Of a stretch of DNA of 50,641 bases, positions 5,687 to 6,052 are shown piece by piece. The DNA is from an uncultured Candidatus Saccharibacteria bacterium (lineage in GTDB: Bacteria; Patescibacteriota; Minisyncoccia; Phycocordibacterales; VMEP01): assembly GCA_964414265.1 (NCBI GenBank), contig CAYPVT010000001.1:1-50641 (forward strand), in the 5' to 3' direction. The notes below the pieces were generated by a model that was not told the DNA's origin, did not search any database, and saw only the letters and a program-made list of their open reading frames with translations. Every line of letters starts with the position of its first letter. Position 1 is the stretch's first letter. Made by a program: the position numbers and the translations under genes.

Positions 5687-5760
5687 CGCGGCCAATGGGA
5701 CTTGAACCCACAACCTCTCGCGTGACAGGCGAGTGCTCTAACCAGTTGAGCTATGGCCGC
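5687..5760 (-). tRNA. tRNA-Asp(GUC)
   Basis: GCGGCCA/TA/GCTCAACTGGTTAGAGC/A/CTCGC-CTGTCAC-GCGAG/AGGTT/GTGGGTTCAAGTCCCAT/TGGCCGC-G. Confidence 0.93.
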
Positions 5761-5990
5761 ATTTTATTCTTCAAAAATCTTCTACCCGTAGCAGATTTTA
5801 AATATTTCTCTCGAAGAATTGCCTCCTTTCGAGTTTCATATTTTTCCACATAAACTATTTTAGCCCCAATCATACCTTTTGTGGATTTTGTATGACCACT
5901 ACAATGTTCTCTAAAACGTCTTACAAGATCTTCAGTTTGACCTTTATAGACCTTACCATTCTTATCTTGTAAAACGTATACAAAAAACAT
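5751..5990 (-). CDS. Small GIY-YIG (URI-domain) nuclease family protein
   Basis: 79 aa. FFVYVLQDKNGKVYKGQTEDLVRRFREH matches the GIY-(x10)-YIG-like N-terminus plus a conserved R/E. The last codons and the TAG stop are nt 1-10 of tRNA-Asp. Confidence 0.8.
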   Translation of the reverse strand: MFFVYVLQDKNGKVYKGQTEDLVRRFREHCSGHTKSTKGMIGAKIVYVEKYETRKEAILREKYLKSATGRRFLKNKMRP

Positions 5991-5993
5991 TTT

Positions 5994-6052
5994 GACCAGT
6001 TGAGCCCCGCCCGTACCGAACGAATTCGGTCCGTTCGGGCGGGTATGGCCGC
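5994..6052 (-). pseudogene. Duplicated tRNA-Asp 5' fragment (nt 1-20) split by a 38-nt GC-rich hairpin
   Basis: Sense read GCGGCCATA-[CCCGCCCG...CGGGCGGG, 6006-6043]-GCTCAACTGGT. Without the hairpin it is identical to tRNA-Asp nt 1-20. It lies immediately upstream of the GIY-YIG start codon. Confidence 0.8.

What the first reader, a model, noticed from the sequence alone, without database searches (positions are those of the whole stretch)
5687..6052. GIY-YIG ORF inserted in a duplicated 5' end of tRNA-Asp and terminating on the tRNA's U8-A9-G10
In tRNA sense the order is as follows:
- a tRNA-Asp nt 1-20 copy, itself split by a GC hairpin
- CAAA, then ATG
- the 79-aa GIY-YIG ORF
- ATG CGG CCA TAG, which is nt 1-10 of the intact tRNA-Asp

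The nuclease gene is thus flanked by direct repeats of the first 20 nt of the tRNA (GCGGCCATAGCTCAACTGGT). Its last three codons and its stop codon are tRNA sequence. This looks like a free-standing homing-type nuclease cassette that inserted in the D-loop while restoring an intact tRNA copy. It also implies co-transcription of the nuclease mRNA with the tRNA.
Basis: partly seen in the sequence, partly recalled or inferred. Interest (0 to 1): 0.65.

Follow-up and report, generated by a model that had tools for sequence, protein, structure and literature searches.

The report
Tiny nuclease cassette in duplicated tRNA-Asp start
A 292-bp selfish insert (a minimal GIY-YIG nuclease gene plus a GC-rich hairpin) sits in a short duplication of the start of a tRNA-Asp gene so that the tRNA stays intact, and the same design recurs next to many different tRNA genes across bacterial phyla, apparently without having been described.

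Summary
On the minus strand the order is tRNA-Met, 22-nt spacer, AAAAT + tRNA-Asp nt 1-9, a 38-nt GC palindrome, tRNA-Asp nt 10-20, CAAA, a 79-aa GIY-YIG ORF, then an intact tRNA-Asp. The ORF's stop codon is tRNA U8-A9-G10.

Two metagenome contigs from a near-identical genome carry the predicted empty site: tRNA-Met, the same spacer, and an intact tRNA-Asp. The occupied form therefore equals the empty form plus about 292 bp.

The ORF is under purifying selection (dN/dS 0.06-0.14, no frameshifts). Between two strains it is far less diverged than its flanking genes (dS 0.04 against 0.15-0.37). Sequence and predicted fold place it with the minimal UPF0213/Slx1-type GIY-YIG nucleases.

The architecture is family-wide. 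Among 84 related ORFs from 80 genomes of many phyla:
- 40 abut the 5' end of a same-strand tRNA, 13 of them stopping on nt 8-10.
- 11 start within 25 nt after a tRNA or tmRNA.
- 47 of these 51 carry a partial copy of that tRNA on the far side of the ORF.
- That copy usually contains a GC palindrome (38 of 53 flanks against 7% of controls).

A second, ORF-less copy with the same hairpin lies upstream of tRNA-Ile in this window. I found no published description. The insertion mechanism is inferred, not shown.

The parts
6507..6534 (-). Sigma-70-like promoter match (TTGAAA-16-TATTAT) upstream of the first tRNA-Met. It is the candidate promoter of the tRNA-Met/tRNA-Met/ORF/tRNA-Asp unit.
   Evidence: 10 of 12 consensus matches. 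This is a consensus match only.
6075..6146 (-). tRNA-Met(CAT) immediately upstream. Its 3' end and the 22-nt spacer form the left flank of the insertion site.
   Evidence: The same flank is present in the empty-site loci L097 and L098.
6044..6057 (-). Left copy of the duplicated target, part a: 5 nt of leader (AAAAT) plus tRNA-Asp nt 1-9 (GCGGCCATA).
   Evidence: Exact 14-nt direct repeat with 5752-5765 (D15).
6006..6043 (.). 38-nt GC-rich near-palindrome (CCCGCCCG...CGGGCGGG) inserted between nt 9 and 10 of the dead tRNA copy.
   Evidence: Absent from the empty site. Conserved in L008, L010 and L011, with a compensatory stem change in L010 (ACCGAA/TTCGGT to ACTGAA/TTCAGT).
5995..6005 (-). Left copy of the duplicated target, part b: tRNA-Asp nt 10-20 (GCTCAACTGGT), followed by the CAAA spacer at 5991-5994.
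5751..5990 (-). 79-aa minimal GIY-YIG nuclease ORF. It has no stop codon of its own; its last codons are leader plus tRNA nt 1-7, and its TAG stop is tRNA nt 8-10.
   Evidence: - ORF listed; Pfam PF01541 E=1.7e-14.
- Invariant Y5, Y15, G17, R25, H29 and E61.
- dN/dS 0.06-0.14.
- AlphaFold pLDDT 94, with best PDB matches 1ZG2, 1YWL and Slx1 6SEH.
5741..5765 (-). Right copy of the 25-nt duplicated target (AAAAT plus tRNA nt 1-20). It continues into the functional tRNA.
   Evidence: A single copy is present in the empty-site loci.
5686..5760 (-). Intact tRNA-Asp(GTC).
   Evidence: ARAGORN; Rfam tRNA 72.9 bits.
5662..5679 (-). Terminator-like hairpin plus T-run just after tRNA-Asp.
   Evidence: consensus match only.
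27587..27663 (-). ORF-less sibling. It consists of a partial copy of tRNA-Ile(TAT) nt 1-22, the same hairpin family (27606-27641, opposite orientation), then nt 23-41 of the copy. A 29-nt spacer separates it from the intact tRNA-Ile at 27483-27557.
31840..32109 (+). Second small GIY-YIG ORF (89 aa, 40% identical), lying between smpB and the tmRNA gene (32174-32572). No flanking repeat was detected.

Best explanation
The 292 bp between tRNA-Met and tRNA-Asp are a miniature selfish endonuclease cassette. It has two parts: a gene for a minimal, single-domain GIY-YIG nuclease of the UPF0213/Slx1 type, and a GC-rich palindrome.

How it sits in the genome:
- The cassette lies in a 25-bp tandem duplication of the target, made of 5 nt of leader plus tRNA nt 1-20.
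- The right-hand copy runs on into an intact tRNA-Asp, so the host loses nothing.
- The left-hand copy is dead and carries the palindrome between nt 9 and 10.
- The ORF has no stop codon of its own. It reads through the junction into the tRNA until the near-universal U8-A9-G10 gives TAG.
- It has no recognisable promoter or terminator. It lies inside the tRNA-Met/tRNA-Met/tRNA-Asp block and is most likely expressed by read-through of the tRNA transcript.

Proposed mechanism (inferred, not shown):
1. The nuclease breaks tRNA-gene DNA at or near an unoccupied site.
2. The break is repaired from an occupied allele (homing within a population).
3. The partial tRNA duplication arises by break-induced recombination at short homologies between the ORF 3' end and the tRNA 5' end. 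This has been shown experimentally for the phage GIY-YIG enzyme SegB and its neighbouring tRNA gene.
4. Only events that regenerate a whole tRNA survive.
5. Rare ectopic events carry the element to other tRNA and tmRNA genes.

The palindrome is a cognate cis-element. Its most likely role is as the structured DNA that this Slx1-like enzyme binds or cuts, and it also breaks up the left-over target copy.

What is shown: the anatomy, the empty site, purifying selection, low divergence relative to flanks, the family-wide architecture, and the association of the hairpin with the ORF. What is inferred: nuclease activity and specificity, the homing and duplication mechanism, co-transcription, and the hairpin's role.
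For: Anatomy and insertion:
- Anatomy read directly.
- Empty site in L097 and L098 with identical spacer and synteny.
- L010 (occupied) against L097 (empty): 98.3% identity in the upstream flank, a 27-nt overlap equal to the duplicated target, and 293 extra nt.
- L008 has the same layout, with the upstream copy matching its own, different acceptor stem.

The ORF is a working gene:
- dN/dS 0.06-0.14 and no frameshifts.
- Catalytic residues invariant.
- Pfam GIY-YIG.
- Closest PDB entries are UPF0213 1ZG2 and 1YWL by sequence, and those plus Slx1 6SEH by fold.

Recent exchange between strains:
- Window against L002: flanking-gene dS 0.30, 0.15 and 0.37, but ORF dS 0.044.
- Only 3 differences in the 461 nt from tRNA-Met to tRNA-Asp.

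Family-wide architecture, from 84 ORFs in 80 genomes of many phyla:
- 40 abut a same-strand tRNA 5' end, 13 with the stop on nt 8-10.
- 37 of those 40 have a copy of at least 11 nt of the tRNA 5' part upstream.
- 11 start within 25 nt after a tRNA or tmRNA, and 10 of these have a downstream copy.
- None lies next to an opposite-strand tRNA.
- 14 tRNA types plus tmRNA are involved.

The hairpin belongs to the element:
- GC palindromes occur in 38 of 53 dead-copy flanks against 7.2% of 1444 control windows (p=8e-32).
- They are 12-fold denser near the ORFs.
- Hairpin type tracks protein similarity (53% against 45% identity, permutation p<0.0005).

Other support:
- Promoter-like and terminator-like sites bracket the tRNA/ORF block, and no terminator-like site separates tRNA-Met from the ORF.
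- SegB precedent: it recognises the tRNA T-psi-C motif (PMC2330249). It also drives tandem amplification of tRNA plus segB through microhomology between the tRNA 5' end and the segB 3' end (PMC13096335).
Against: - No biochemical data exist for this protein. At 79 aa it has no DNA-binding domain, unlike characterised homing endonucleases, so long-site recognition is unexplained.
- Classical homing does not create target duplications.
- The intact right-hand copy keeps the whole 25-nt duplicated segment. Immunity of the occupied allele therefore requires that recognition extend beyond it.
- ORF divergence among lineages roughly tracks host divergence (81% against about 75% nt identity). This also fits long vertical residence with occasional precise loss through the direct repeats, rather than frequent homing.
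- The hairpin lies inside the left repeat, not at an element end, and tRNA-derived sequence separates it from the ORF. No single simple event explains this.
- The second GIY-YIG ORF in the window lacks repeats.
- The correlation between hairpin type and protein clade may be partly confounded by host phylogeny.
Confidence: 0.55

Rival explanations
1. The element is a transposon-like unit. The minimal GIY-YIG protein acts as a structure-specific 'transposase' on the palindrome (or on split palindrome halves that act as terminal inverted repeats). It nicks tRNA-gene DNA at junctions of the extruded cloverleaf. Widely staggered nicks give long target-site duplications of 11 to about 70 nt. The move is to new sites rather than allele-to-allele homing.
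For: - The direct repeats always derive from the local tRNA, across 14 tRNA types plus tmRNA.
- In a subfamily (L067, L071, L075, L087) the two halves of a palindrome flank the ORF like terminal inverted repeats, next to an 11-nt repeat of tRNA nt 1-11.
- Hairpin insertion points cluster at cloverleaf junctions and loops (nt 8-12, 17-22, 26-29), or the hairpin replaces the anticodon arm.
- The closest fold with a known activity is Slx1, a branched-DNA nuclease.
- ORF-less hairpin copies sit near other tRNAs.
Against: - No GIY-YIG transposase is known.
- The window copy has no terminal inverted repeats. The only inverted repeat near the ORF lies inside it (I9).
- The hairpin is separated from the ORF by target-derived sequence.
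- The variable duplication length is unlike any known transposase.
- No strand-transfer chemistry is known for this fold.
Confidence: 0.2
2. The ORF cassette and the hairpin are two independent elements. The nuclease gene inserted together with a tRNA 5' duplication. The GC palindrome is a separate miniature mobile repeat that targets tRNA-like sequence, perhaps mobilised in trans. It is seen only in dead tRNA copies because an insertion into a live tRNA gene is lethal.
For: - Hairpins occur without an ORF next to tRNAs.
- Hairpins occur in either orientation. The tRNA-Ile copy is inverted relative to the tRNA-Asp copy.
- Some pseudo-copies hold two hairpins (L061, L053, L094).
- Insertions are precise, with no loss of tRNA sequence, often after TA and before G.
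Against: - Hairpin type co-varies with protein clade.
- Hairpin and ORF have stayed together at the same position through four diverged lineages.
- No locus in the close relatives has the duplication and ORF without the hairpin.
- Hairpins are rare away from these ORFs and tRNAs.
Confidence: 0.15
3. The ORF is a host gene with a tRNA-linked function, for example repair or guarding of tRNA genes against integrating elements, or RNA processing. It is not selfish DNA, and the repeats are by-products of other recombination at tRNA genes.
For: - Strong purifying selection.
- Strict co-orientation with tRNAs.
- Some relatives lie next to integrase genes and tRNA 3' fragments (L009, L012).
- An earlier survey noted a fusion of Slx1-like prokaryotic GIY-YIG domains to a TrmH-type tRNA methyltransferase (PMC1564403).
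Against: - Presence/absence polymorphism between near-identical genomes.
- The tRNA partner differs in every lineage.
- Tandem arrays and ORF-less remnants exist.
- Divergence is lower than in the flanking genes.
- No PADLOC defence model matches the protein.
Confidence: 0.07
4. It is a decaying relic: a dead ORF next to a chance or slippage-derived repeat.
For: None beyond the small size of the ORF and the lack of its own stop codon.
Against: - dN/dS 0.06-0.14, no frameshifts, catalytic residues intact.
- A confident fold prediction.
- The architecture recurs in dozens of genomes.
- The empty site shows a discrete insertion.
Confidence: 0.02

Closest known systems
Phage T4/T6 SegB, a free-standing GIY-YIG homing endonuclease in the phage tRNA gene cluster (PMC2330249; PMC13096335)
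   Same: - It is a GIY-YIG nuclease gene lying among tRNA genes.
- It targets tRNA-gene sequence (the T-psi-C motif) and is inherited preferentially.
- Its cleavage drives tandem duplication of tRNA plus nuclease gene through microhomology between the tRNA 5' end and the nuclease gene 3' end.
- This parallels the direct repeats here and the tandem arrays seen in L050, L062 and L077.
   Different: - SegB is a phage protein of about 220 aa with a DNA-binding region. Here the protein is a 79-aa catalytic domain alone, on a bacterial chromosome.
- SegB has its own stop codon, no associated palindrome, and no dead partial tRNA copy as a fixed feature.
- Sequence similarity is limited to the GIY-YIG core (TIGR01453 at 24.5 bits, below its cut-off).
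UPF0213 / prokaryotic Slx1-like stand-alone GIY-YIG proteins (PDB 1ZG2 BH0048, 1YWL EF2693; Dunin-Horkawicz et al. 2006, PMC1564403)
   Same: - Best sequence matches in the PDB, and best fold matches together with Slx1.
- The same minimal size, and the same conserved Tyr/Tyr/Arg/His/Glu set.
   Different: Those proteins are treated as hypothetical housekeeping nucleases. The 2006 survey does not mention tRNA adjacency, flanking tRNA repeats or hairpins.
Integrase-borne genomic islands and prophages that insert into tRNA genes and restore them with a carried tRNA segment
   Same: The principle is the same: the insertion leaves an intact tRNA plus a partial direct repeat of it.
   Different: - Those elements are kilobases long, use tyrosine or serine recombinases, and duplicate the tRNA 3' end.
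- This element is 292 bp, has no recombinase, and here duplicates the 5' end.
GIY-YIG ORFs in non-intron insertion sequences of CPR rRNA genes (PMC11270868)
   Same: - Small GIY-YIG ORFs inserted in structured-RNA genes of uncultured bacteria.
- They are not associated with group I or II introns.
- The insertions lie at tops or bases of stem-loops.
   Different: - Those interrupt rRNA genes and must be removed from the RNA. Here the tRNA is kept whole by duplication.
- That paper does not mention tRNA at all.
REP/BIME palindromes with RAYT transposases, and IS200/IS605 hairpin-dependent elements
   Same: - Short GC-rich palindromes are associated with a small nuclease gene.
- Solo palindromes are scattered at related sites.
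- Insertion occurs next to a short motif without loss of target sequence.
   Different: - Those enzymes are HUH nucleases, not GIY-YIG.
- They have no tRNA specificity and do not make long target duplications.

Membership tests
GIY-YIG nuclease superfamily (Pfam PF01541) | Profile match above the curated threshold | tested here: met
   54.3 bits against a 22.6 cut-off, E=1.7e-14, residues 1-70.
GIY-YIG nuclease superfamily (Pfam PF01541) | Conserved catalytic set: the two Tyr of the GIY and YIG motifs, Arg, His and the metal-binding Glu | tested here: met
   Y5, Y15, G17, R25, H29 and E61 are invariant in 12 aligned relatives.
GIY-YIG nuclease superfamily (Pfam PF01541) | Three-stranded sheet flanked by helices | tested here: met
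   AlphaFold model with pLDDT 94 and topology E-E-H-E-H-H. Top PDB fold matches are 1ZG2, 1YWL and Slx1 6SEH.
UPF0213 / Slx1-like minimal stand-alone GIY-YIG | Single catalytic domain of about 80-110 aa with no accessory domain, and closest to UPF0213 members | tested here: met
   79 aa. 1ZG2 at E=7e-6 and 1YWL at E=6e-5 are the only PDB sequence hits.
UPF0213 / Slx1-like minimal stand-alone GIY-YIG | Structure-specific cleavage of branched or hairpin DNA | not testable with these tools
   Needs purified protein and DNA substrates.
Free-standing homing endonuclease gene (Seg type) | Presence/absence polymorphism of the gene at one locus among close relatives | tested here: met
   L010, L011, L001-L007 and L008 are occupied; L097 and L098 are empty. 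L010 and L097 flanks are 98.3% identical.
Free-standing homing endonuclease gene (Seg type) | Nuclease domain joined to a DNA-binding domain that reads a long, degenerate site | tested here: not met
   The whole protein is the 70-residue catalytic domain plus a target-encoded tail.
Free-standing homing endonuclease gene (Seg type) | Cleaves the empty allele and is copied into it by repair | not testable with these tools
   There is only indirect support: ORF dS 0.044 against 0.15-0.37 in flanking genes between two strains.
Insertion sequence / MITE-type transposon | Target-site duplication flanking the element | tested here: met
   A 25-27 nt direct repeat derived from the local target, present as a single copy in the empty site. 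The length is atypical and varies among loci.
Insertion sequence / MITE-type transposon | Terminal inverted repeats at both ends of the element | tested here: not met
   The window copy has none; the palindrome lies wholly inside the left repeat. Split palindrome halves flank the ORF only in the subfamily L067, L071, L075 and L087.
Insertion sequence / MITE-type transposon | Encodes a recognised transposase family | tested here: not met
   GIY-YIG is the only domain found.
Group I / tRNA intron with homing endonuclease | Interrupts the RNA gene and carries a ribozyme or splice structure | tested here: not met
   A complete tRNA-Asp lies downstream of the ORF. There is no intron or ribozyme family in Rfam at E<=1 over 4000-7000.
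Integrase-type tRNA-targeting island | Recombinase gene inside the element, and a repeat of the tRNA 3' end | tested here: not met
   The insert is 292 bp with one 79-aa ORF, and the repeat is of the tRNA 5' end.

The most novel reading that the evidence does not exclude
These cassettes are a distinct and so far unrecognised class of minimal mobile element that is specific for tRNA and tmRNA genes. They are about 300 bp long and consist of a one-domain Slx1-like GIY-YIG nuclease plus a cognate GC palindrome.

On this reading the enzyme recognises the folded (cloverleaf or cruciform) form of tRNA-gene DNA rather than a long sequence. Insertion builds a partial tandem duplication that always regenerates the tRNA. 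The element borrows the tRNA's promoter, and often its U8-A9-G10 as a stop codon. It has spread across many bacterial phyla.
Probability: 0.4. Interest if true: 0.85.

Novelty: new variant of a known kind. Interest (0 to 1): 0.7.

Why it matters
- It would be one of the smallest autonomous mobile units known in bacteria, and one that solves the problem of inserting into an essential gene without killing the host by duplicating part of that gene.
- It gives a concrete biological role to the large, uncharacterised UPF0213/Slx1-like family of stand-alone GIY-YIG proteins.
- It explains partial tRNA copies, hairpin-bearing pseudo-tRNAs and contig breaks next to tRNA genes in metagenome-assembled genomes.
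- It explains why gene callers produce variable C-termini for these proteins: the tails are read from tRNA DNA.
- It extends to bacterial chromosomes the recently shown ability of a GIY-YIG homing enzyme (SegB) to drive tRNA-linked segmental duplication.
- A nuclease that recognises tRNA-gene structure with only about 70 residues would also be of practical interest.

Tried and rejected
Literature:
- Nine full-text searches combined GIY-YIG with tRNA adjacency, palindromes, tmRNA, CPR/Patescibacteria, COG2827/UPF0213/YhbQ, and the hairpin sequences themselves.
- I also read the 2006 GIY-YIG survey.
- None described tRNA-flanked minimal GIY-YIG cassettes. This covers open-access papers and bioRxiv only.

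Database searches with no useful result:
- Rfam at E<=1 over 4000-7000 found only the tRNAs and sub-threshold matches to unrelated families. Nothing matched the hairpin or the neighbouring repeats.
- PADLOC gave no hit for the 79-aa protein.
- NCBIfam gave only a sub-threshold group I intron endonuclease match.

Readings considered and rejected:
- Intron: rejected because the tRNA downstream is complete.
- Intrinsic terminator role for the hairpin: not supported. No T-run follows it, and the scan does not call it.
- The 116-aa gene call P0002: rejected as an upstream extension that starts inside tRNA-Met.

Unresolved:
- I tried to derive a single-event model that yields the order 'repeat part a, hairpin, repeat part b, ORF, repeat a+b' and did not find a convincing one.
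- No flanking repeat of at least 10 nt was found around the second GIY-YIG ORF near the tmRNA gene.
- Single-strand DNA folding of the hairpin region gives only modest z-scores (-1.7 to -3.3). The case for the hairpin therefore rests on conservation and recurrence, not on folding energy.
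Full report
**Observation.**
Reading the minus strand of 5300-6500 with ARAGORN and Rfam gives this order:
- tRNA-Met(CAT), 6451-6380
- a second tRNA-Met(CAT), 6146-6075
- a 22-nt spacer
- AAAATGCGGCCATA, 6057-6044
- a 38-nt GC-rich near-palindrome, CCCGCCCGAACGGACCGAATTCGTTCGGTACGGGCGGG, 6043-6006
- GCTCAACTGGT, 6005-5995
- CAAA
- an ATG-initiated ORF, 5990-5751
- tRNA-Asp(GTC), 5760-5686

The ORF ends ...AAT AAA ATG CGG CCA TAG. 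G1 of the tRNA is the third base of the ATG codon, and the TAG stop is tRNA nt 8-10. The two tRNA-derived pieces upstream equal tRNA nt 1-9 and 10-20. The repeat in fact starts 5 nt before the tRNA (exact 14-nt repeat, D15), so the duplicated target is 25 nt.

**The ORF is a real nuclease gene.**
- Pfam GIY-YIG matches at 54 bits against a cut-off of 22.6.
- Eleven database relatives (47-100% identical) and a second ORF from this window align with Y5, Y15, G17, R25, H29 and E61 invariant.
- An AlphaFold model built on that alignment is confident (pLDDT 94).
- Its best PDB matches are the UPF0213 proteins 1ZG2 and 1YWL, followed by the branched-DNA nuclease Slx1 (6SEH, TM 0.66, rmsd 2.4 Å). The same two UPF0213 entries are the only PDB sequence hits.
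- Against the orthologous ORFs in L010, L011 and L008 (77%, 81% and 69% amino-acid identity), dN/dS is 0.06-0.14 with no frameshift. The 'decaying ORF' refutation therefore fails.

**It is an insertion.**
I searched metagenome contigs for the tRNA-Met 3' end followed within 5-35 nt by an uninterrupted tRNA-Asp 5' end. This returned two contigs, L097 and L098.
- They have the same synteny: the 204-aa gene, two tRNA-Met, tRNA-Asp and two tRNA-Thr.
- The junction reads ...CATCGGCAC-acggtttgaaaaaatcgaaaat-GCGGCCATAGCTCAACTGGTTAGAGC.
- There is no hairpin, no ORF and no duplicate.
- L010, which is occupied, is 98.3% identical to L097 over 722 nt up to the end of AAAATGCGGCCATA. The alignment then resumes 27 nt earlier in L097, which leaves 293 extra nt in L010.

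In the window, occupied equals empty plus 292 bp: hairpin 38, tRNA nt 10-20 (11), CAAA (4), ORF body 225, and AAAAT plus nt 1-9 (14).

**The repeat follows the local tRNA.**
In L008 the tRNA-Asp starts GCGATCGTAG instead of GCGGCCATAG. Its upstream copy reads AAATAAATTGCGATCGTA + hairpin + GCTCAACTGGTTAGA, matching its own tRNA and 9 nt of its own leader. The hairpin sits at the same place (nt 9/10) in all four lineages. It keeps its palindromic form through a compensatory change: the inner stem ACCGAA/TTCGGT in the window is ACTGAA/TTCAGT in L010.

**Signs of recent spread.**
I compared the window with L002, which is the same species from a different study.
- Synonymous divergence (dS) of the flanking genes is 0.30 (gatA), 0.15 (204-aa gene) and 0.37 (RF2).
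- The ORF has dS 0.044 (2 synonymous differences in 225 nt).
- The whole 461 nt from tRNA-Met to tRNA-Asp differ at 3 positions.
- At longer range the ORF's synonymous sites change freely (dS 0.7-0.9 against L010 and L011). The low value therefore points to recent exchange of the cassette rather than constraint.
- Across lineages, ORF divergence is similar to host divergence (81% against about 75% nt identity). Long residence with occasional precise loss through the repeats is also compatible.

**Expression context.**
A consensus scan finds a promoter-like site upstream of the first tRNA-Met (6534-6507) and a terminator-like hairpin with a T-run just after tRNA-Asp (5679-5662). It finds no terminator-like site between tRNA-Met and the ORF. 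Two weaker promoter-like matches lie inside the ORF itself. This fits co-transcription but does not show it.

If RNase P cuts at tRNA nt 1, the ORF mRNA would lose its stop codon. That is my inference from the known activity of RNase P, not a result.

**The architecture is family-wide.**
A scan of one genome per species with the alignment gave 80 loci. They come from Bacteroidota, Patescibacteria groups, Elusimicrobiota, Omnitrophota, Verrucomicrobiota, Ignavibacteriota, Planctomycetota, Chloroflexota and others. Scripted analysis with ARAGORN and exact matching covered 84 ORFs.

| Class | ORFs | Detail |
|---|---|---|
| ORF ends between 40 nt inside and 60 nt before the 5' end of a same-strand tRNA | 40 | 13 stop exactly on nt 8-10; others stop in the D-loop or anticodon loop in the other two frames, or just before the tRNA. 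37 have a copy of at least 11 nt of that tRNA's 5' part upstream of the ATG. |
| ATG within 25 nt after a tRNA or tmRNA | 11 | 10 have a partial copy of that tRNA downstream. |
| Neither | 33 | 11 are still flanked by direct repeats of at least 20 nt, several of them tRNA fragments. |

No ORF lies next to an opposite-strand tRNA, and 14 tRNA types plus tmRNA are involved.

The conserved protein ends near ...YLKSxxGRxFLK. The tails after that point are read from target DNA, which explains the variable C-termini. Tandem arrays occur in L050 (after a tmRNA), L054, L062, L063, L066 and L077.

**The hairpin belongs to the element.**
- The dead tRNA copy usually carries one or two GC-rich palindromes: CCCGCCCG...CGGGCGGG, CCTGCCTGCCGGCAGGCAGG, TCCGCC...GGCGGA, TCCCGA...TCGGGA or GTCGCC...GGCGAC.
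- The palindrome is either inserted without loss of tRNA sequence, often after TA, or it replaces the anticodon arm.
- A GC palindrome with a stem of at least 6 bp is present in 38 of 53 such flanks against 7.2% of 1444 control windows from the same loci (p=8e-32).
- The patterns are 12 times denser near the ORFs. Many of the remaining occurrences lie near other tRNAs.
- Proteins that share a hairpin type are more alike (53% against 45% identity, permutation p<0.0005). Host phylogeny may contribute to this.
- In the window the CCCGCCC...GGGCGGG pattern occurs only twice (0 expected).
- The second copy (27606-27641) lies in an ORF-less partial copy of tRNA-Ile(TAT): nt 1-22, hairpin, nt 23-41. 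It sits 29 nt upstream of the intact gene.

One exception remains: the second GIY-YIG ORF (31840-32109, between smpB and the tmRNA gene) shows no repeat.

**Mechanism.**
*Shown:* a discrete 292-bp insertion; a partial duplication of the target that preserves the tRNA; an intact and constrained nuclease gene; recurrence with hairpins at many tRNA genes.

*Inferred:* the nuclease breaks tRNA-gene DNA, and repair from an occupied allele spreads the cassette. Break-induced recombination at short homologies makes the duplication.

The closest experimental precedent is phage SegB, a GIY-YIG homing enzyme in the tRNA cluster.
- It recognises the T-psi-C motif (PMC2330249).
- It was recently shown to drive tandem amplification of a tRNA-plus-segB unit through microhomology between the tRNA 5' end and the segB 3' end (PMC13096335).

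Difficulties for the model:
- The protein has no DNA-binding domain.
- The intact copy retains the whole duplicated segment.
- The hairpin is separated from the ORF by target-derived sequence.

The similarity to Slx1 and the clustering of hairpin positions at cloverleaf junctions suggest recognition of structure rather than sequence. That keeps a transposon-like reading alive. An independent origin of the hairpin is a third possibility.

**Comparison with what is known.**
- By sequence and fold the protein is a member of the UPF0213/Slx1-like minimal GIY-YIG group.
- As a mobile unit it behaves like a free-standing homing endonuclease gene, but it fails one defining feature of that class, the separate DNA-binding domain.
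- It is not an intron, an integrase island or a classical insertion sequence.
- GIY-YIG ORFs in non-intron insertions of CPR rRNA genes are known (PMC11270868). That paper does not mention tRNA.
- The 2006 superfamily survey does not mention tRNA linkage for the stand-alone proteins.
- Nine literature searches found no description of this architecture.

I therefore rate it as a new variant of a known kind. There is a substantial chance that it deserves recognition as its own class of tRNA-gene-specific mini-element.

Noticed in passing
window 5300-5673 (minus strand, just downstream of tRNA-Asp): Two tandem 187-nt units, 99% identical. Each ends with a copy of the last 19-20 nt of tRNA-Asp (from the T-loop to the 3' end). 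L001, from the same species, has one unit fewer, so the copy number varies. Relatives show compensatory changes in an internal hairpin (GACACTTGAGTGTC against GACGTTTGAACGTC in L011). There is no Rfam match.
   Followed up: partly
window 5106-5126, 6285-6314, 23636-23673, 23834-23862, 33572-33592, 38370-38406: The motif CGGAGC-hairpin-CGAG(G/C)C occurs 6 times (0.07 expected). It lies mostly in short non-coding units just after tRNA genes: Thr-GGT, Met, Ser (twice) and Ala.

Several units (after tRNA-Asp, Thr-GGT and Ser) end with a direct copy of the tRNA 3' end starting in the T-loop (...GTGACC + RAATCC...). Some (after tRNA-Ser and tRNA-Ala) begin with an inverted copy of that 3' end.

This is a second kind of tRNA-3'-linked mini-insertion or structured RNA. 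The part within 4000-7000 has no Rfam match.
   Followed up: partly
window 4499-4954 (minus strand): A 151-aa HNH endonuclease ORF between tRNA-Thr(CGT) and tRNA-Thr(GGT). It matches the PADLOC homing-endonuclease model at 6.7e-11 and a PHROG HNH model at 2e-16. It is absent from the empty-site relatives L097 and L098, and a different 115-aa ORF takes its place in L002. It looks like a second mobile nuclease gene in the same tRNA cluster.
   Followed up: partly
window 6147-6379 (between the two tRNA-Met genes): A GC-rich insert of about 230 nt carrying the CGGAGC...CGAGGC motif. It is present in the window, L001 and L011, but absent from L002, L010, L097 and L098, where the two tRNA-Met genes are 59 nt apart.
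   Followed up: partly
window 31840-32109 (plus strand): A second small GIY-YIG ORF (89 aa, 40% identical to the first). It starts 2 nt after the smpB stop codon and ends 65 nt before the tmRNA gene. No flanking repeat was found. A half-palindrome-like GGTCGCCCGAAC lies in the spacer. In another genome (L050), two tandem copies of a related ORF follow the tmRNA gene, with copies of its 3' end.
   Followed up: partly
window 27587-27663 (minus strand): An ORF-less partial copy of tRNA-Ile(TAT), nt 1-41, carrying the same hairpin family after nt 22. It sits 29 nt upstream of the intact tRNA-Ile. It is either a remnant of a cassette that lost its ORF or a solo hairpin insertion in a duplicated tRNA start.
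   Followed up: yes
L067, L071, L075, L087 (Saccharibacteria, Wolfebacteria and unclassified bacterial MAGs): In this subfamily there is no contiguous hairpin. Two halves of a palindrome flank the ORF like terminal inverted repeats, for example L075: GGAGGCGTGCC|CCCACACTAATTGAGT...ORF...ACTCAATTAGTGTGG|AGGCGTGCC. They lie next to an 11-nt direct repeat of tRNA nt 1-11.
   Followed up: partly
L009 2700-3400 and L012 2900-3310: Relatives of the ORF (63% and 56% identical) lie beside tyrosine-integrase genes. They are flanked by direct repeats that are tRNA 3' fragments plus a terminator, which look like attachment-site remnants. A similar GC hairpin lies at the ORF's 3' end. The cassette therefore also lands on tRNA fragments left by integrating elements.
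   Followed up: partly
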